The notes under the pieces are model-generated. The model did no database searches. It was not told the origin of the DNA and saw only the letters and a program-made list of their open reading frames with translations. A program made the translations under genes and the position numbers. This document shows, one piece after another, positions 60 through 7,345 of a stretch of DNA of 7,345 bases. The DNA comes from a virus. The stretch lies in the IMG/VR virus record IMGVR_UViG_3300003327_000002; one strand, 5' to 3'. How positions within the stretch are numbered: the stretch's first letter is position 1; every line of letters begins with the position of its first letter.

Positions 60-191
60 GCCCTACCCCTACCCCCCGCACCCCGAAGACCCGCCCCGGC
101 CGGGGGGGAGAGCCGGGGGCGGGATGACCAAGGCCATTGGTCACAAGGCACTGTATAAAGGGCTTGGTCACCTCAGTCAAGGGGCTTGGTC
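60..191. promoter_or_regulatory. Divergent control region between the minus-strand morphogenesis/replication operon and the plus-strand repressor gene (second copy at 7151-7282)
   Basis: This 132-bp stretch is non-coding. The minus-strand promoter is TTGACT (plus 180-175), a 17-nt spacer, then TATACA (157-152). The plus-strand -10-like TATAAA lies at 154-159 with TG at 152-153, and it overlaps the minus -10. The SD AAGGGG at 179-184 sits 7 nt before the ATG at 192. Confidence 0.55.
90..123. other. GC-rich stem-loop: CCCGCCCCGG / CCGGGGGCGGG arms with one bulge, containing the perfect 12-nt palindrome CCCCGGCCGGGG at 94-105. Candidate ssDNA origin, packaging signal or leader structure.
   Basis: Arms 90-99 and 113-123 are complementary apart from one extra G. 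The C-tract array at 61-101 lies next to it, and these become G-tracts on the coding/packaged minus strand. Confidence 0.4.
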
Positions 192-192
192 A
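125..192. promoter_or_regulatory. Operator-like array: four copies of the half-site TTGGTCA
   Basis: TGACCAA (125-131) and TTGGTCA (137-143) form an inverted repeat with a 5-nt spacer. Direct copies of GGGCTTGGTCA lie at 160-170 and 182-192, 22 bp apart. The last copy overlaps the repressor ATG, and the middle copy lies in the spacer of the minus-strand promoter. Confidence 0.5.
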
Positions 193-671
193 TGGAAATC
201 GGAGAAATCATCGACCGCGCGAAAGCAGCAATCGGAGCCGAGAGCGACAGCGCGCTATCCCGCCACCTCGGACTCAGCCGAACCGCGGTAGGCAACTGGC
301 GGTCAGGCGTCAGCCTGCCGGACCCGGTTTCCTGCGAGCGCCTGGCAGGACTGACCGGAATCCCGCTGGCACGGGTGCTGGGAATCGTAGGAGAAGCCCG
401 CGCTCACTCGCGCGAGGAAAAGGCCGTATGGCGCAAGCTGGCGGCCTCCGCCACCCTCCTAGCGCTGGTGGTGCTGGGAAACGCGCAGGAAGGCGTCTAT
501 GCGGCCACACAGCCGTCAATCGACGCGGCCAAGATGTATATTATGCGAAATCGCGGGGGCCTCGATAAAGGACTGCGCTACCTCGGCCGAATCCTGCGGG
601 ACTGGCTCGGCTTCGCCCTAGGACGCGCCCGCAAGCCAGAAGGAAGCATCGAGGTCTTCACATGGATTTGA
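192..671 (+). CDS. XRE/Cro-cI-type helix-turn-helix repressor (putative phage immunity/lysogeny regulator), 159 aa
   Basis: The HTH signature SALSRHLGLSRTAVGNWRSG spans about nt 246-308. The gene is divergent from the structural operon, as filamentous-phage repressors are. I chose the ATG at 192 with SD AAGGGG over the TTG at 186. Codons are GC3-rich except at the embedded dif-like site. Confidence 0.85.
   Translation: MEIGEIIDRAKAAIGAESDSALSRHLGLSRTAVGNWRSGVSLPDPVSCERLAGLTGIPLARVLGIVGEARAHSREEKAVWRKLAASATLLALVVLGNAQEGVYAATQPSIDAAKMYIMRNRGGLDKGLRYLGRILRDWLGFALGRARKPEGSIEVFTWI
524..551. other. dif-like XerC/XerD recombination site (candidate attP) inside the repressor CDS: CGCGGCCAAGA-TGTATA-TTATGCGAAAT
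   Basis: On the minus strand it reads ATTTCGCATAA-TATACA-TCTTGGCCGCG. From memory, ATTTCGCATAA is the XerC arm of Xanthomonas dif, and E. coli dif is GGTGCGCATAA-TGTATA-TTATGTTAAAT. This is an AT-rich island in a GC-rich gene: the codons tat att atg cga aat break the GC3 bias. Confidence 0.55.
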
Positions 672-985
672 CCGACTACAACAACAGAACGCCATGTTGG
701 CCAATGGGCCAGCCATGCCCGAACAAGTGCGCTGCGCAAGTGCGCGATTTGATAACGCGGAACCATGTGCACTTGCACGGCCCGTGGGCCGGCTGGCGAC
801 TCGCCGGCCGCGACTTGGTCAGCCCGGACGGCATCAGATTCAGCCCCGAGCGACTCCGAGGGCTGGCATGGCGGCAAGAAGCAGAAACCCGCTTGGCCCA
901 CATCCGGGCCAAGCACAAGCAGCAAGAACCGCTCGTCACCGTGATCCGCGTCCGCAAGAACGAAATCGGCCCCCTAGCAGGCTAG
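662..985 (+). CDS. Small phage protein, probably DUF3653 family (XafT-like Xer recombination activation factor candidate), 107 aa
   Basis: The ATG at 662 overlaps the repressor stop (ATGGATTTGA), with SD GAGG at 651-654. GC3 bias is strong. The motif GPWAGWRLAGRDLVSPDGIRFSPERLRGL and the size match my recollection of DUF3653 proteins of IMEX-type phages. Confidence 0.7.
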   Translation: MDLTDYNNRTPCWPMGQPCPNKCAAQVRDLITRNHVHLHGPWAGWRLAGRDLVSPDGIRFSPERLRGLAWRQEAETRLAHIRAKHKQQEPLVTVIRVRKNEIGPLAG

Positions 986-1221: not shown

Positions 1222-1611
1222 ATGGATCGAGAGCGACCGCCCTACCTGGGCGACCTACCGCGCGACCGACGCGGCAACTGGCCGATGTACCTGCTGGCCG
1301 TCAGCCTACTGGCCGCACTGATCGGCGCTTGGAAGGTCTACACGGGCACCGTGGTGGCATGGCATGAGCGCTTCCAGGCTCCGAAGCCCACCGCCACAGC
1401 GCCAGCACCGCCAAGCCCCGCCAAGCTGGAACGACGCCGCGCAGCACGGCAAGAGGCGCTTGTCGCAGAGGCTGCGCGCCAGATCATGCAGCAGGCCGAG
1501 AAACAGGACCGGTCAGGCTGGAAATGCATCGACGGCACGCCGTTCCGGCCTGTTCCAGGTGGCGGCTGGGAGAACGTGCCAGGCGAGAGATGCGCTACGT
1601 CGAGGCAATAG
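1222..1611 (+). CDS. Membrane-anchored protein of unknown function, 129 aa: Arg-rich N-terminus, one TM helix, Pro-rich linker, charged helix, and a C-terminal two-Cys domain
   Basis: SD AAGGGGGA lies 5 nt before the ATG at 1222. Codon usage is GC3-rich. The TM segment is YLLAVSLLAALIGAWKVY. The C-terminal sequence is GWKCIDGTPFRPVPGGGWENVPGERC. I recognise no family. Confidence 0.7.
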   Translation: MDRERPPYLGDLPRDRRGNWPMYLLAVSLLAALIGAWKVYTGTVVAWHERFQAPKPTATAPAPPSPAKLERRRAARQEALVAEAARQIMQQAEKQDRSGWKCIDGTPFRPVPGGGWENVPGERCATSRQ

Positions 1612-2230
1612 CAGACAACAAGACGAGATGAGCAACGTAATACCCGAGGAAAACCCATCGAACGCGCGGCAAGCGCACATCCAGACGCCCGAGCGCCCAC
1701 AGCACCGGCACCGATAACAACGCCCAGACGTTGCCGTTGTAGAGGCACAAAGCGCTGTATGCAACACCCAGTGCTAAGGCAGCGACGAAGTGACCCGTCC
1801 ACGTTCTGGCGCGGAACCAAAGACACGCAGAGAACATCAGCGCCGGGCCGGTCCACTGGTAATCAACGAACAGGCCAAGGACCGCCCACACTACGAGCGC
1901 AGCCCATGCACTCCGCGCAGTGCAAACGTACAGCCCGAGCGCCAACGAGAACAACACGTTCACCGGCAGCCAGTACCCGAACGCAAGAGCATGGAACGGC
2001 TGAACGACCGCCCCAGCCACCAACAGGCGGCGAATCGCCCGGCCAGACGTTCCAGGACGCGTGTCTACCGCAGCGTTGTAAGCCAGCACGACGGCAAATA
2101 CCGGAAACGCGACGCGCCCCAATTCCGACAGCCACTGAAACGAGCCAGCGAACAAGGCTTTGTTCACGTGGTCGCCGGTCATCAAAACAAGCGCAAGCCA
2201 CTTCAACAGCTCACGGCCACCAGAAGTCAT
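1595..2230 (-). CDS. traX: TraX-family integral-membrane acyltransferase (F-pilin N-acetylase family), 211 aa
   Basis: Three blocks align with my memory of F-plasmid TraX. LKWLALVLMTGDHVN matches IKTVALVLMVLDHSN. GRVAFPVFAVVLAYN matches GRGAFPLFALVWGLN. LPRVRWVFLGYYVAHLVLLSAIA matches LPRFWPGDFFPTFYACHLAVLGVLAL. The protein is polytopic and hydrophobic throughout. Its start overlaps the zot stop (ATGA at 2230-2227). Confidence 0.85.
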   Translation of the reverse strand: MTSGGRELLKWLALVLMTGDHVNKALFAGSFQWLSELGRVAFPVFAVVLAYNAAVDTRPGTSGRAIRRLLVAGAVVQPFHALAFGYWLPVNVLFSLALGLYVCTARSAWAALVVWAVLGLFVDYQWTGPALMFSACLWFRARTWTGHFVAALALGVAYSALCLYNGNVWALLSVPVLWALGRLDVRLPRVRWVFLGYYVAHLVLLSAIAST

Positions 2231-3691: not shown

Positions 3692-5061
3692 TATGCAGTC
3701 CCCCCGCTAACGATCCGCAACGACACCAGTCCGGCCAGGATCAACACGATAGAACCGGCAAGACTCACCCATTGACACAACGGCGCAAGATCGAAATTAA
3801 CCACCACGCCGTTTGGCAACGTCACACTCGGCGGCGTTGGACACGTCCGCGAATAGCCGTAACCGCTCGAATCAGGCTCAGGGATATCAACTTCATCATC
3901 GCCGGGGCCAGCATCAGTCAGCGTATCGCCGCCAACAACGTTGGGATCATGCGTACCCGGACCGCCCAAGAAGTCGATCACGTCCGAATTGTCACCATCG
4001 CCGCCGCCACCACCGCCCGCCGCCATCTTTTCCAGCGAACACGCTGCCTTCCACTGTTGCACCAGCATCGAATACTCGAGCGCGTCACACTTCTCACCAT
4101 CGCATACCGGCATAGCTCCACACGTACCGCCACTTATGCTGCGGTTCTTGCGAGTATTGCAATCAATGCGCCATTGAATCCGCGCTTGTCCGCACAAGAT
4201 CGGACTACCGCTGCACTGTGGCGGAGTGCTGCAATCATCGCCGCCGGAAAAAAACTCTTCGTCGGCGTCGTCTTCGTTGCCATCGCCGTCATCATCGCGC
4301 TTGCACGTGCCATCCGGGCCGCGCACCTGACCGGCGGGACACTCGTTATCAACACAGCTACCATCCGGACCGCGAACTTGACCGGCTGGACATTCGTTCT
4401 CGCGCTTGCGACACGTGCCATCCGGACCCAGAACTTTACCCGCAGGGCAAGGCTCCGGAGCGCACTGGCCCAAACTGTTACGCGACTGGCCAGCAGGACA
4501 AAGCGGCTCGTCAGGCTCACACACATTCAACACGGGATTCCAAGTGTGACCGGACGCAACACACGATTCCGGAAAATTACGGCCATCACACGCGCTGGAC
4601 TGATCGAAACTAGCAGTGCTGGTGCCATCTGCATTCTGATAAAAATGCACGGTGCAACCACCGTTGCAGCCATACGAACCAGAACGAGGCAAAAACTCAG
4701 TCACAAAATCATCGCGCGCCTGGCAACTGCTCCTAAAAAAATAAGTGCCGTAATACGTCTGAGAGCCAGCATAAGCCGTAGAACAATCCCAAGCTCGATG
4801 AATGATGGTATAGCGCGGCTGATAGCGGTCAGGCAGCGTCTTAAAACACCCGTCAAACGACCGAACATAACCAGTGATCTCTTTACCATCGCCGGGCGAA
4901 TGCTCAGCCATGCAGCGTGAGTACGCCTCGCCCTCGTCCTCATACATGCCACCGCTAGGCGGGCTGAATGAAGGAGCCTGGCACGATTGAGCAAATGCGC
5001 TCCCCGCCGCGACGAACAGCGAAAAAAAACACAAAACCCGCGCGAAGAGCACACGAACCAT
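3691..5061 (-). CDS. pIII-like adsorption/minor coat protein, 456 aa
   Basis: It has a signal peptide MVRVLFARVLCFFSLFVAAGSAFA/QS. The start at 5061 has a GGGGG SD 7 nt upstream, and I rejected 5118. Downstream come a Cys-rich N-terminal domain, four Cys-bounded repeats, an acidic stretch, a Gly run (GGGGGGDGD) and a C-terminal membrane anchor WVSLAGSIVLILAGLVSL. It lies immediately after the major coat gene. Confidence 0.8.
   Translation of the reverse strand: MVRVLFARVLCFFSLFVAAGSAFAQSCQAPSFSPPSGGMYEDEGEAYSRCMAEHSPGDGKEITGYVRSFDGCFKTLPDRYQPRYTIIHRAWDCSTAYAGSQTYYGTYFFRSSCQARDDFVTEFLPRSGSYGCNGGCTVHFYQNADGTSTASFDQSSACDGRNFPESCVASGHTWNPVLNVCEPDEPLCPAGQSRNSLGQCAPEPCPAGKVLGPDGTCRKRENECPAGQVRGPDGSCVDNECPAGQVRGPDGTCKRDDDGDGNEDDADEEFFSGGDDCSTPPQCSGSPILCGQARIQWRIDCNTRKNRSISGGTCGAMPVCDGEKCDALEYSMLVQQWKAACSLEKMAAGGGGGGDGDNSDVIDFLGGPGTHDPNVVGGDTLTDAGPGDDEVDIPEPDSSGYGYSRTCPTPPSVTLPNGVVVNFDLAPLCQWVSLAGSIVLILAGLVSLRIVSGGTA
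4303..4500 (-). repeat. Imperfect tandem coding repeats encoding four Cys-bounded 13-residue loops
   Basis: The peptides are CPAGQSRNSLGQC, CPAGKVLGPDGTC, CPAGQVRGPDGSC and CPAGQVRGPDGTC, at ORF-track residues 207-272 of the 475-aa ORF. The matching nucleotide repeats (ccatccgg[gr]cc...accggc) are visible on the plus strand. Confidence 0.8.
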
Positions 5062-5629: not shown

Positions 5630-5917
5630 TCAGCCCTTCACCGCGTTGGCGGTCGAAGTCGGAATCGGAATCAAGTAGATGCGGCGGCCGACCCGCAGCG
5701 AGTCGAAATCGCCGACTTCCAACGAGGACACGTCGAGCAGATACTTGCCCGGCGGATACGGCGGCTGATCGTCGCCAAGATTGATAGTGAACGGCTTCGG
5801 GAAGTCCTCGCCAGTCTCAATGGCCGCCCGCTGTTCCTTGAAAACAACCTGCGTACCGTCCTTGCGCTTGATGACGCGCGGCGTGGCAGTGCCAGACTTG
5901 ATGATGATGCAGTTCAT
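5630..5917 (-). CDS. gV-like ssDNA-binding protein, 95 aa
   Basis: The assignment rests on position directly after Rep with an ATGA overlap (5917-5914), a GGAG SD 8 nt upstream, its size, and a beta-rich sequence ([29 protein letters not shown]...). I rejected the upstream starts at 5974 and 5938. Confidence 0.7.
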
Positions 5918-6747
5918 GCGATTAGCTCCAATTTCCATGCAAAAACCCGGCCCTGAATGAACGAAACCCGCCACGGCGAGGGCCAGAATTCGCCGGTGAG
6001 TTTGTCAACGTAGCCGCCGAGGGCTTTGCGAATATCGGCCAACGGACCGAGTGCGGCGCGCGCATCTTCCGGGGCTTTCCACCACCGCAGTTCGCGCCTG
6101 GACTCTTCATTGAGGCCGCCGACGCCATGAGTGCGAAAACCCTTCGGGAACGCCTCAGCCATCGCGCCGCAGAACTTGGAGGCGTACTTAGCGAGATACC
6201 CGACCGCATTACGGGCGCGCTCGATCTTAGTCATGCCGTGAGGCCACCAGCCGCGCGCGTCCGGCTTGCCCATCCAGTAGCCGCGCGGAATCCAGATCAG
6301 GAGGTGGTAGTGAGGCCGCAGGCGCTTTGTGAGTTCGCAGACCCACAAATAACGGAGGCGCGCACGCCCCAGCCCCTTTCGTCGGTTAAAGCGATCGAAG
6401 TGGCCCCGGACTCGCTTAACCAATTCGCTAACGTCACGAGGGCTTGCGTCACTTCCCTCTGCGTAGGTCGCAGTGAGCATGTACCACGCGCCACGCACTG
6501 AACCCTTCCGCGCTTCTTCGTCATGGAGCCTTGCTCCGGTGATGATGGACTTCCGCAGGCGCATGGCCCTGATGCGGTTCTTGTTGAGTTCAACCGACAC
6601 GCGGTGAAGATGGCGCGTGTCACTTGTTGAAGAATGGACAAGCCCAAGGCCGCCTGCGGCGGCCTTCGAAAAGCGGGCGGCGCAAAGCGACTCCGCAACC
6701 TCAGCGGTGCGATGCGCAGCAGCGGCAAGGAGGGAGGCACGATTCAT
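5914..6747 (-). CDS. HUH-superfamily rolling-circle replication initiation protein (gII-like), 277 aa
   Basis: Motif I-like is WYMLTATY. The HUH motif is PHYHLLIW (nt 6292-6315). The catalytic Tyr motif is [11 protein letters not shown] (nt 6172-6204). I chose the start at 6747 because of the ATGA overlap with the upstream ORF and the GAGGTG SD. Confidence 0.9.
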
Positions 6748-6956: not shown

Positions 6957-7150
6957 CAAACCTTCCTCAACTCGCGGCATCGGGCAGCGCGCACCTCGCG
7001 CTCAGCGTTCCAGACCAGCGCAGCGGCGCGGTAGCTCGCATCCAGACGATGAAAGCGGCGAAGACGGACGAAGCGGACGACCCCGGCGATACCGCCGACA
7101 ACCAACGCAGCAGCGATGGTCAGGAGGACGACTGCAAGAAGCTGGCCCAT
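6956..7150 (-). CDS. Small membrane protein, first gene of the minus-strand operon, 64 aa
   Basis: An N-terminal TM helix (LLAVVLLTIAAALVVGGIAGVV) is followed by a basic stretch (RFVRLRRFHR). Codons are GC3-rich. It is coupled to the next ORF. I recognise no family. Confidence 0.55.
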   Translation of the reverse strand: MGQLLAVVLLTIAAALVVGGIAGVVRFVRLRRFHRLDASYRAAALVWNAEREVRAARCRELRKV

Positions 7151-7282
7151 GCCCTACCCCTACCCCCCGCACCCCGAAGACCCGCCCCGGCCGGGGGGGA
7201 GAGCCGGGGGCGGGATGACCAAGGCCATTGGTCACAAGGCACTGTATAAAGGGCTTGGTCACCTCAGTCAAGGGGCTTGGTC
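7151..7282. promoter_or_regulatory. Second copy of the divergent control region; this copy is physically upstream of the operon start at 7150
   Basis: It is identical to 60-191. The operator half-sites lie at 7216-7222, 7228-7234, 7254-7261 and 7276-7283. The GC hairpin lies at 7181-7214. Confidence 0.55.
7243..7271 (-). promoter_or_regulatory. Sigma-70-type promoter for the replication/morphogenesis operon
   Basis: Reading the minus strand gives TTGACT (7271-7266), a 17-nt spacer, then TATACA (7248-7243). This predicts a leader of about 85 nt containing the GC hairpin and G-tracts before the ATG at 7150. Confidence 0.5.
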
Positions 7283-7345
7283 ATGGAAATCGGAGAAATC
7301 ATCGACCGCGCGAAAGCAGCAATCGGAGCCGAGAGCGACAGCGCG
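7283..7345 (+). CDS. Duplicate 5' fragment of the HTH repressor gene (same as 192-254), truncated by the window end
   Basis: The sequence is identical to that of the first copy. Confidence 0.6.
   Translation, partial: MEIGEIIDRAKAAIGAESDSA

What the first reader, a model, noticed from the sequence alone, without database searches (positions are those of the whole stretch)
524..551. dif-like Xer site embedded in the repressor coding sequence
**Seen in the sequence.** CGCGGCCAAGA-TGTATA-TTATGCGAAAT lies inside the HTH repressor ORF at codons ~111-120 (DAAKMYIMRN). The codons tat att atg cga aat are A/T-ending in an otherwise GC3-rich gene, which suggests a DNA-level constraint overriding codon bias.

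**Established knowledge (from memory).**
- Xanthomonas dif carries the XerC arm ATTTCGCATAA, which is the reverse complement of 541-551.
- Cf/Lf/XacF1-type phages integrate at dif through host XerC/D.

**The orientation is ambiguous.**
- Read on the minus strand, it is a perfect XerC arm, a centre TATACA, and a degenerate XerD arm.
- Read on the plus strand, it is a degenerate arm, the dif centre TGTATA, and a near-XerD arm (TTATGCGAAAT vs TTATGTTAAAT).

**Inference.** No integrase gene is present, so this is the likely attP. Integration would cut off the last ~40 codons of the repressor, so episomal and integrated forms would encode different repressor C-termini.
Basis: partly seen in the sequence, partly recalled or inferred. 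Interest (0 to 1): 0.65.

Follow-up and report, generated by a model that had tools for sequence, protein, structure and literature searches.

The report
Xer attachment site inside phage repressor gene
A small filamentous phage carries, inside its repressor gene, the DNA site that lets the host's own chromosome-resolving enzymes (XerC/XerD) insert the phage into the bacterial chromosome; the site is real, but the same arrangement is already known from Xanthomonas and Ralstonia filamentous phages.

Summary
The 28-mer is at 524-551 exactly as described. The window is a circular 7,091-bp inovirus with no integrase. The XerC arm ATTTCGCATAA (minus strand, 541-551) is not expected by chance (0 of 200 shuffles).

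Comparative evidence settles its nature:
- 128 of 130 homologous repressor genes carry a dif-like half-site at the same position. It occurs in all three reading frames, so the constraint is on the DNA, not the protein.
- In more than 60 Lysobacteraceae loci, the repressor is the truncated end gene of a ~7-kb prophage bounded by two directly repeated dif-like sites.
- The nearest cultured relative, a Pseudoxanthomonas sp. SGNA-20 prophage, is split exactly here.

The orientation ambiguity resolves to the minus-strand reading: XerC arm, centre, degenerate XerD-side arm. The plus-strand "TGTATA" is probably a one-base synonymous variant of the palindromic TGTACA found in the closest relatives.

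A DUF3653 gene overlaps the repressor stop. DUF3653 is the domain of the Vibrio Xer activator XafT, which suggests TLC-type XerD-first integration, but that role is contested.

The architecture is published for XacF1 ORF12 and φRSS0 ORF13, and annotated for Xf109 ORF10. This is a new member of a known kind. Integration of this lineage itself was not seen.

The parts
541..551 (-). XerC-binding arm of attP, ATTTCGCATAA. On the sense strand it reads TTATGCGAAAT and encodes (I)MRN.
   Evidence: Exact and unique in the window; 0 of 200 shuffles contain it. Nearly invariant in 94 unique class-A sites. Identical to the arm of the chromosomal dif-like sites in Lysobacteraceae loci.
535..540 (-). 6-bp central (strand-exchange) region. 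It reads TATACA from the XerC arm and TGTATA on the plus strand.
   Evidence: Siblings have TGTACA (L050-L055) and TGTGCA (L155, L110). The window variant recurs in independent assemblies L001, L140 and L141. The A at the second position is unique among 94 class-A sites.
524..534 (-). Degenerate XerD-side arm, TCTTGGCCGCG on the minus strand. It matches the XerD arm TTATGTTAAAT at 3 of 11 positions and is ordinary repressor coding sequence.
   Evidence: this arm is unconserved across the family except G at the fifth inner position (86%) and T at the sixth (69%). The window has T at position 1 and G at position 5.
192..671 (+). Repressor-like gene of 159 codons: CI-type HTH, DUF3693, a hydrophobic segment, a variable linker, the att site and a tail.
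   Evidence: Pfam Phage_CI_repr, DUF3693 and HTH_3. 509 homologues. 30% identical to Xf109 ORF10, which contains that phage's annotated attP.
552..671 (+). The 39-codon C-terminal tail plus stop codon. Integration would detach it from the repressor N-terminal part.
   Evidence: The tail is conserved only in episomal or rejoined forms (LRYLGRILRDWL...VEAFxWI). In prophage L155 the homologous tail lies at the opposite prophage end, next to the complete dif-like site.
662..985 (+). DUF3653 gene of 107 codons, overlapping the repressor stop codon (ATGGATTTGA). It is either a XafT-like Xer activator or a PSB15-like packaging-signal binder.
   Evidence: Pfam PF12375, E = 1.4e-8. 79% identical to the DUF3653 protein of prophage L155. 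Xf109 has the same HTH-attP-DUF3653 order. Functions are taken from PMC6744903 and bioRxiv 10.1101/2024.03.19.585677.
125..192 (.). Four TTGGTCA repeats (one inverted) immediately upstream of and overlapping the repressor start. Probably operator sites.
   Evidence: 10 copies in the window, 6 in the unique genome, against 0.7 expected. Four of them cluster at 125-192. Function is inferred.

Best explanation

**Anatomy.** Read on the minus strand it has three parts:
- a perfect XerC-binding arm (541-551);
- a 6-bp strand-exchange centre (535-540);
- a degenerate XerD-side arm (524-534), which is simply repressor coding sequence.

**Predicted integration.** Host XerC/XerD pair this site with the chromosomal dif at the replication terminus and recombine within the centre.
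- The phage ends up between two dif-like sites.
- The repressor keeps codons 1 to about 117. Codons MRN are re-supplied by the host XerC arm, and translation then runs into host DNA.
- The 39-codon tail and the overlapping DUF3653 gene move to the far end of the prophage, beside the regenerated full dif-like site. They are then cut off from the repressor promoter.

**Mechanism.** The site design (good XerC arm, centre matching the host, poor XerD arm) and the adjacent DUF3653 gene point to a TLCφ-like, XerD-first mechanism that does not need FtsK.

**What is shown and what is inferred.**
- Shown: the site anatomy, family-wide conservation at the DNA level, and prophage junctions in relatives.
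- Inferred: Xer dependence, the order of strand exchange, the role of DUF3653, and the consequences for regulation.
For: **The site and the genome.**
- The XerC arm is exact and unique; 0 of 200 shuffles contain it.
- The genome is circular and has no recombinase.

**Family-wide conservation.**
- 128 of 130 family genes carry the half-site at the same gene position.
- It occurs in all three frames: YIMRN (54), YTLCE (34) and IHYAK (17).

**Prophage structure in relatives.**
- More than 60 loci have a second, complete dif-like site 5.5-9 kb upstream in direct orientation.
- The flanks show the GC-skew sign change expected at a replication terminus in 20 of 34 loci, and the opposite change in 1.
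- S. maltophilia locus L004 shows both junctions directly.
- Prophage L155 is the nearest cultured relative: Zot 73%, DUF3653 79%, repressor 60% identical. It is split exactly at the site, and rejoining its two ends restores a tail homologous to window 552-671.
- Three sibling metagenome contigs end exactly after the centre, the XerC arm and one further base. That is the pattern expected when episomal and integrated forms are assembled together.

**Precedent.**
- Xf109's annotated attP lies in the homologous HTH gene, followed by a DUF3653 gene.
- XacF1 integrates at dif, with attP inside ORF12 (PMC4076744).
- DUF3653 is the Xer-activating domain of XafT and is found in the Xanthomonadales dif phages (PMC6744903).
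- G at the fifth inner position of the XerD-side arm is conserved. This fits the XafT-driven requirement reported in PMC9226527.
Against: **No integrated copy of this lineage.** Neither the 99% nor the 88% lineage was found integrated in 185,579 genomes, in IMG/VR, or in the one metagenome scan.

**Deviant centre.**
- The window's centre has A at the second position, where 99% of 94 class-A sites have G. The window lineage is the only exception.
- No dif-like site in the fetched genome loci has the centre TATACA read from the XerC arm.
- This variant may therefore integrate poorly or not at all.

**DUF3653 role disputed.** In φLf-UK the DUF3653 protein PSB15 binds the packaging signal, and its loss does not affect integration (bioRxiv 10.1101/2024.03.19.585677). 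That weakens the XafT-like step.

**Untested.** Xer dependence and the order of strand exchange were not tested here.
Confidence: 0.82

Rival explanations
1. Plus-strand (mirror) reading. The site acts as degenerate XerC-side arm, then centre TGTATA, then an arm bound by XerD (TTATGCGAAAT). It would integrate into a TGTATA-type dif of Stenotrophomonas or Xanthomonas in the opposite orientation, as the family's class-B members do.
For: - Class-B relatives exist. 25 gene copies read degenerate arm, TGTATA (or TGCATA, TGCACA, TGCCTA), then TTATGT..., with prophage junctions to match (L002, L021, L031, L045, L156).
- The window's plus-strand centre equals the Xanthomonas-type dif centre at 6 of 6 positions and starts with TG, as all dif-like sites seen here do.
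- The peptide AAKMYIM resembles the class-B peptide AKAGMYIM.
Against: - Every class-B site has TTATGT. The window has TTATGCG, the XerC-type arm.
- The relative with a 99% identical repressor, L050, has TGTACA with the same arms.
- Sibling contigs break after the whole XerC arm, so the identity with the host extends across that arm.
- The nearest integrated relative, L155, is class A.
Confidence: 0.08
2. The site is a decayed or repurposed attP. The G-to-A change at the second position of the centre blocks XerC strand exchange. This lineage would then live as an episome, perhaps using the site only to resolve multimers of the replicative form, or not at all.
For: - The window's centre is the only one of 94 class-A sites without G at position 2.
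- All contigs that carry TGTATA are complete or partial episomal genomes that do not break at the site (window, L001, L140, L141).
- No integrated copy was found.
Against: - The XerC arm and the rest of the centre are intact.
- The change is a single synonymous transition, so it may be recent and neutral.
- XafT-driven recombination of TLCφ works on the three most common dif1 variants of V. cholerae, including the apparently defective dif1AT (PMC6744903).
- dif centres differ between Pseudoxanthomonas species (TGCACA, TGCATA, TGTATA, TGCCTA), so a matching host could exist unsampled.
Confidence: 0.08
3. The motif is kept for the protein, as a functional YIMRN peptide, or it is a chance AT-rich patch with no role as DNA.
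For: YIMRN is conserved in many homologues.
Against: - The same DNA is read as YIMRN, YTLCE or IHYAK in different members. Class B is read as MYIM*, CILCK or VYYVK.
- Protein similarity stops exactly at the motif in chromosomal copies.
- The exact arm is absent from 200 shuffles.
Confidence: 0.01

Closest known systems
Xanthomonas integrative filamentous phages Xf109, XacF1 and Cf1c (Xylivirus): the HTH gene - attP - DUF3653 module
   Same: - attP lies in the 3' part of an XRE/CI-type HTH gene, on the gene's sense strand, as centre followed by the reverse complement of the XerC arm.
- A DUF3653 gene overlaps the end of the HTH gene.
- There is no integrase, and integration is at host dif.
- Gene order includes TraX, Zot, pVI and pIII homologues (PMC4076744).
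   Different: - The repressor is only 30% identical to Xf109 ORF10, and tblastn finds nothing in 50,697 phage records.
- DNA similarity to known phages covers 8% of the genome or less.
- The 15-bp core is TGTATATTATGCGAA rather than TATACATTATGCGAA, 13 of 15 positions.
- The host is probably Pseudoxanthomonas-like, not Xanthomonas.
Ralstonia phage φRSS0 (attP inside ORF13)
   Same: A dif-type attP sits at the 3' end of a reverse-oriented HTH regulator. Integration truncates the regulator from 156 to 130 aa, and different functions for the two forms have been proposed (PMC3816273).
   Different: - The att sequence is different (TATTTAACATAAGATAAAT).
- The host is a betaproteobacterium.
- No homology with the window was tested here.
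TLCφ of Vibrio cholerae (TLC-type IMEX with XafT)
   Same: The attP has a good XerC arm and a XerD arm that binds XerD poorly. A DUF3653 protein is encoded next to attP. Integration is XerD-first and independent of FtsK (PMC6744903, PMC9226527).
   Different: - In TLCφ the HTH and DUF3653 domains are fused in one protein, XafT. Here they are two overlapping genes, and attP lies inside the HTH gene.
- In Xanthomonas φLf-UK the DUF3653 protein is reported to bind the packaging signal and to be dispensable for integration.
VGJφ-type and CTXφ-type IMEX
   Same: These are filamentous phages without an integrase that use XerC/XerD at dif.
   Different: From established knowledge of IMEX classes:
- VGJ-type sites have two good arms, and XerC makes the first exchange.
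- The CTX-type site is formed by two inverted sites folded in single-stranded DNA.

The window has one site with a 3-of-11 XerD-side arm and no inverted partner.

Membership tests
IMEX (integrative mobile element exploiting Xer) | A dif-like attachment site on the element | tested here: met
   XerC arm 11 of 11, plus a centre, at 535-551. 0 of 200 shuffles contain the arm.
IMEX (integrative mobile element exploiting Xer) | No self-encoded integrase or recombinase | tested here: met
   Pfam scan of the ten main ORFs found no recombinase family. The remaining ORFs have 78 codons or fewer.
IMEX (integrative mobile element exploiting Xer) | Found integrated at the chromosomal dif, flanked by two dif-like sites | tested here: inconclusive
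   Met for relatives: more than 60 loci, including L155 (Zot 73% identical), with terminus-type GC-skew flanks. No integrated copy of the window's own lineage was found.
IMEX (integrative mobile element exploiting Xer) | Integration depends on host XerC and XerD | not testable with these tools
   This needs xerC and xerD mutants. It is reported for XacF1 and Cf2 relatives only (PMC4076744; Yeh 2020, as cited).
TLC-type IMEX | Good XerC arm combined with a degenerate XerD arm | tested here: met
   11 of 11 against 3 of 11 matches to the Xanthomonas-type dif arms.
TLC-type IMEX | Centre homologous to the host dif | tested here: inconclusive
   The two junction sites share the same centre in all but one prophage seen (the exception is L022). 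The search required an identical centre to find the second site, so only the independent scan tests this. The window's host is unknown, and its centre differs by one base from its siblings' TGTACA.
TLC-type IMEX | Element-encoded DUF3653 (XafT-like) activator of XerD | tested here: inconclusive
   The DUF3653 domain is present at 662-985 (E = 1.4e-8). Its function is contested: XafT in PMC6744903 against PSB15 in bioRxiv 10.1101/2024.03.19.585677.
TLC-type IMEX | XerD catalyses the first strand exchange, independently of FtsK | not testable with these tools
   This needs in vitro or in vivo assays with catalytic mutants.
VGJ-type IMEX | Both the XerC and XerD arms are well conserved in a double-stranded attP | tested here: not met
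   The XerD-side arm TCTTGGCCGCG matches at 3 of 11 positions.
CTX-type IMEX | Two inverted dif-like sites that fold into a forked hairpin in single-stranded DNA | tested here: not met
   There is only one dif-like site in the genome.
Xylivirus-type HTH-attP-DUF3653 module (Xf109, XacF1, Cf1c) | attP inside the 3' part of the HTH regulator gene, with a DUF3653 gene immediately downstream | tested here: met
   Window: HTH gene 192-671, site 524-551, DUF3653 gene 662-985. Xf109: ORF10 6043-6513, attP 6121-6135, ORF9 5663-6046.
Xylivirus-type HTH-attP-DUF3653 module (Xf109, XacF1, Cf1c) | The 15-bp core TATACATTATGCGAA | tested here: not met
   The window has TGTATATTATGCGAA, which matches at 13 of 15 positions.

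The most novel reading that the evidence does not exclude
The window's site may be a natural intermediate between two mirror-image site designs that coexist in this repressor family.
- Class A has the XerC arm and centre conserved and the XerD-side arm degenerate.
- Class B has the XerD-type arm and centre conserved and the XerC-side arm degenerate. That design may be an IMEX attP type not yet described.

The dif arms of Lysobacteraceae are near-palindromic (ATTTCGCATAA against ATTTAACATAA). One or two base changes could therefore flip which recombinase sits on the conserved arm, and with it the direction of insertion and the range of usable hosts. The window's centre reads as a proper TG-initiated centre only on the class-B strand, yet it is joined to a class-A arm. 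It would be such a switch caught in progress, or a site usable in both orientations.
Probability: 0.1. Interest if true: 0.6.

Novelty: new member of a known kind. Interest (0 to 1): 0.35.

Why it matters
**For annotation.** The result marks this uncultured 7.1-kb inovirus as a temperate, dif-integrating phage. It points to a Pseudoxanthomonas-like host in the Lysobacteraceae.

**For the biology of these phages.**
- The repressor-embedded attP is not a curiosity of a few Xanthomonas and Ralstonia phages. It is a family-wide design, seen in about 130 gene copies across Stenotrophomonas, Pseudoxanthomonas, Luteimonas, Lysobacter, Thermomonas and Xanthomonas.
- Integration automatically rewrites the repressor's C-terminus. 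It also separates the repressor tail and the DUF3653 gene from the repressor promoter.
- This gives a built-in molecular difference between the episomal and integrated states. That difference could underlie immunity, prophage stability or superinfective variants. φRSS0 workers proposed this but did not test it.

**Limits.** None of this is new in kind. The mechanism (which strand exchanges first, and what DUF3653 does) remains open in the literature.

Tried and rejected
**Searches that found nothing useful.**
1. Megablast of the genome against 50,697 phage records found only short matches of ~74% identity in the Zot and pIII genes. tblastn of the repressor found nothing. No close cultured phage exists.
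2. An exact-protein look-up of the repressor found only ~7-kb episomal contigs.
3. I scanned IMG/VR for TGTATATTATGCGAAAT to find a host dif with an inverted centre, or junctions. It returned nine unrelated, apparently low-GC contexts. One of them, seen in two contigs (L134 and L138), is a full dif-like site with centre TATACA in an unrelated AT-rich organism. None is informative about this phage.
4. The single metagenome scan, for GCCAAGATGTAYATTATG, found two more episomal copies of the TGTATA variant and no junction.

**Arguments set aside.**
5. The codon-bias argument is too weak on its own (GC3 0.72).
6. The CTX-type folded site is rejected because there is no second site.
7. A protein-motif explanation is rejected by the three-frame distribution.
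8. A sigma-70 promoter scan of 1-1300 found nothing. Whether DUF3653 has its own promoter remains unknown.
9. The GC-rich hairpin at 90-123 does not fold better than shuffled sequence (z = -0.8).
10. I first took the variable "XerD arms" next to class-A prophages in Stenotrophomonas to be the true host arm. They vary too much between species for that to be certain, and tandem IMEX remnants are an alternative. This was left unresolved.

Full report
**What the window is.**
- Bases 1-254 repeat at 7092-7345, so the window is a circular genome of 7,091 bp.
- It encodes a full inovirus gene set: G2P-type replication protein, ssDNA-binding protein, coat protein B, a pIII-like protein, a pVI-like DUF2523 protein, Zot and TraX.
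- On the other strand it carries a CI-type HTH/DUF3693 gene (192-671), a DUF3653 gene (662-985) and one unassigned ORF.
- No ORF matches an integrase or recombinase.
- DNA similarity to cultured phages is limited to ~74% over 8% of the genome or less, all in Xanthomonas inoviruses.

**Checking the observation.**
- 524-551 reads CGCGGCCAAGA-TGTATA-TTATGCGAAAT and covers codons 111-120 (DAAKMYIMRN) of the ORF that starts at 192.
- ATTTCGCATAA occurs once, on the minus strand at 541-551. None of 200 shuffles contains it.
- There is no second dif-like site.
GC3 is 0.72 and 28% of codons end in A or T.

**Comparative evidence: the protein family.** A protein search gave 509 homologues. In an alignment of 28 of them, the sequence behaves as follows:
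- it is conserved through the HTH and DUF3693 part;
- it is variable in a linker;
- it is conserved again in a short [VML][YGH]IMRN motif;
- after the motif it is either unrelated (chromosomal copies from Stenotrophomonas and Pseudoxanthomonas) or continues into a shared tail (copies on ~7-kb contigs).

**Comparative evidence: the DNA.** I fetched 44 genome loci, all Lysobacteraceae apart from two metagenome bins labelled Nitrospira and Opitutus, and 79 IMG/VR loci.
- 128 of 130 gene copies carry a dif-like half-site 330-390 nt into the gene.
- The same DNA is read in all three frames: YIMRN (54 copies), YTLCE (34) and IHYAK (17). The constraint is therefore on the DNA, not the protein.
- In more than 60 loci a second, complete dif-like site lies 5.5-9 kb upstream in direct orientation. 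The repressor is then the terminal, truncated gene of a ~7-kb prophage.
- The flanks of these prophages show the (+,-) GC-skew change expected at a replication terminus in 20 of 34 loci. The opposite change occurs in 1.
- S. maltophilia locus L004 shows both junctions directly.

**The nearest integrated relative.** A Zot search placed the window closest to Pseudoxanthomonas prophages. Prophage L155, in Pseudoxanthomonas sp. SGNA-20, has the same gene order. Its Zot is 73%, its DUF3653 protein 79% and its repressor N-terminal part 60% identical to the window's. It is split exactly at the site:
- One end reads GGCCGACCCGA-TGTGCA-TTATGCGAAAA followed by host DNA. This gives a 128-aa ORF ending ...PMCIMRKSSTSPGVA*.
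- The other end reads a XerD-side arm (host, or a neighbouring element), then TGTGCA, then TTATGCGAAAT, followed by IMRNNLLWWGRLLRDWL...VAWI* and the overlapping DUF3653 gene.
- Rejoining the two ends restores a full ORF whose tail is homologous to window 552-671.

It is passed in a relative, not in the window's own lineage.

**Orientation.** The family contains two mirror classes.
- Class A (105 copies) reads, on the sense strand, degenerate arm, then the reverse complement of the host centre, then TTATGCGAAAT. The conserved arm is the XerC arm.
- Class B (25 copies) reads degenerate arm, then the host centre, then TTATGT.... The conserved arm is of the XerD type.

The window is the only site that combines a class-B-looking centre (TGTATA) with a class-A arm. 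Several observations resolve this in favour of class A:
- L050, whose repressor is 99% identical, has TGTACA with identical arms.
- The clade with 88% identical repressors (L051-L055) also has TGTACA.
- L155 and L110 have TGTGCA.
- TGTACA is palindromic, so in these relatives the arm alone sets the orientation.
- Three sibling contigs from three metagenomes end at ...TGTACATTATGCGAAATC. One of them also begins with that 18-mer, and another begins immediately after it. This is the pattern expected when episomal and integrated forms are assembled together. It places the phage-host identity across the centre plus the whole XerC arm.

The window's TGTATA is therefore most simply one synonymous TAC-to-TAT change. 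It is real, because it recurs in the separate assemblies L001, L140 and L141. Read from the XerC arm the centre becomes TATACA. The A at position 2 is unique among 94 non-redundant class-A sites, and no dif-like site in the fetched genome loci has it. Whether it matches an unsampled host, is tolerated, or impairs integration cannot be decided here.

**Mechanism.**
- The site design (perfect XerC arm, centre matching the host in relatives, XerD-side arm matching at 3 of 11) is that of TLCφ. It is not the VGJφ design (two good arms) or the CTXφ design (two inverted sites).
- The gene that overlaps the repressor stop carries DUF3653. This is the domain through which TLCφ's XafT activates XerD, and Midonet et al. 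found it in the Xanthomonadales phages that lysogenise at dif (PMC6744903).
- In the class-A profile the degenerate arm keeps G at its fifth inner position in 86% of sites and T at the sixth in 69%.
- Miele et al. reported that T at position 1 or G at position 5 is what XafT-driven integration needs (PMC9226527). The window has both.
- Against this, a 2024 preprint reports that the DUF3653 protein PSB15 of Xanthomonas φLf-UK binds the packaging signal and is dispensable for integration.
- I therefore give the XerD-first, DUF3653-assisted step about even odds.

Two consequences follow from the geometry, but their regulatory effect is inferred:
- The integrated repressor loses its 39-codon tail and gains host-encoded residues.
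- The tail and the DUF3653 gene land at the other prophage end, behind host DNA.

No sigma-70-like promoter was detected in 1-1300, so it is unknown whether DUF3653 has its own promoter.

**Comparison with what is known.**
- In Xf109 the annotated attP (6121-6135) lies inside ORF10, an XRE-family HTH gene that is 30% identical to the window's repressor. There it is read as YTLCE. A DUF3653 gene, ORF9, overlaps the end of ORF10.
- The XacF1 paper states that attP lies within ORF12, a putative regulator that integration would split. It shows attL and attR at dif (PMC4076744).
- For φRSS0 of Ralstonia, attP lies in ORF13. Integration shortens ORF13 from 156 to 130 aa, and distinct roles for the two forms were proposed (PMC3816273).

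The window is a new, distant member. tblastn of its repressor finds nothing in 50,697 phage records.

**Verdict.** Novelty is "new member of a known kind". Two results go beyond the published cases:
- the family-wide picture, with three reading frames and two orientations;
- the lineage-specific change in the centre.

These are worth a note, but they do not change the classification.

Noticed in passing
Loci L002/L006, L011, L019, L021, L025, L031, L037, L044, L045, L058, L061, L062, L066, L078, L088, L090, L091, L102, L120, L126, L156 (site ~340-370 nt into the repressor gene): About a fifth of the repressor family (25 of 130 copies) carries the att site in mirror orientation. The arm next to the centre is XerD-type: a perfect TTATGTTAAAT in L061 and L102, whose reading frames continue past the site as in unintegrated copies. 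The XerC-side arm is degenerate. Prophage junctions fit this, for example L021 with ATTTCGCATAA-TGTATA-TTATGTTAAAC at one end and TAAGGCCGGAA-TGTATA-TTATGTAAAAC at the other. I do not know whether this attP design has been described; Cf2's 'XerD-dependent integration' paper could not be read.
   Followed up: partly
L053, L054, L055 (IMG/VR contigs from three metagenomes), contig ends: All three contigs end at ...TGTACATTATGCGAAATC. L053 also begins with that 18-mer, and L054 begins with the next base. Assembly graphs apparently branch at both edges of the att core, which suggests that episomal and integrated forms coexist in those samples.
   Followed up: partly
window 125-192 (repeated at 7216-7283): Four copies of TTGGTCA, one of them inverted, lie between the divergent gene blocks and overlap the repressor start codon. 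There are 10 copies in the window against 0.7 expected. They are probably operator sites.
   Followed up: partly
window 4303-4449: Three tandem ~51-57-nt repeats lie in the pIII-like gene. They encode Cys-rich CPAGQVRGPDG(S/T)C units.
   Followed up: no
window 1595-2230 (-): A TraX-family protein (PF05857, E = 4e-37) is encoded just downstream of Zot. The Xanthomonas phages Xf109 and XaF13 and the prophages L002, L004 and L155 have the same arrangement. Its role in an inovirus is unexplained.
   Followed up: no
Left junction sites of class-A prophages in Stenotrophomonas loci (e.g. L004 3152-3179, L008, L012, L014, L015, L026, L027, L032, L034): The 'XerD arm' beside the prophage varies a great deal in its outer 4-5 bases between species (TTATGTTCAAA, ...TTCACA, ...TTACAA, ...TTCTAG, ...TTAGAG). 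That is more than expected for a true dif arm. It may reflect tandem IMEX remnants, so that the real dif lies further away.
   Followed up: no
L010 (Luteimonas sp. 22616) 2869-17842; L033; L072; L108: These loci hold tandem or double prophages, with two copies of the repressor and its att site 7.3-9 kb apart. Repeated integration at the same dif is the likely cause.
   Followed up: no
window 444-490 (repressor residues ~85-100) and all homologues: Every family member has a hydrophobic, transmembrane-like stretch (LAASATLLALVVLG) between the DUF3693 motif EKAVWRKLA and the att site. This is unusual for a soluble repressor and was not examined further.
   Followed up: no
L024 (Luteimonas salinilitoris), L110 (IMG/VR), L155 (Pseudoxanthomonas sp. 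SGNA-20), just downstream of the repressor-end junction: The same flank (AAAATCTAGTACTTCTCCCGGTGT, read as RKSSTSPGVA) follows the XerC arm in hosts from different genera. The DNA was read only in L155; for L024 and L110 the match is inferred from the identical translated tail. It could be a conserved dif-adjacent sequence or a shared neighbouring element.
   Followed up: no
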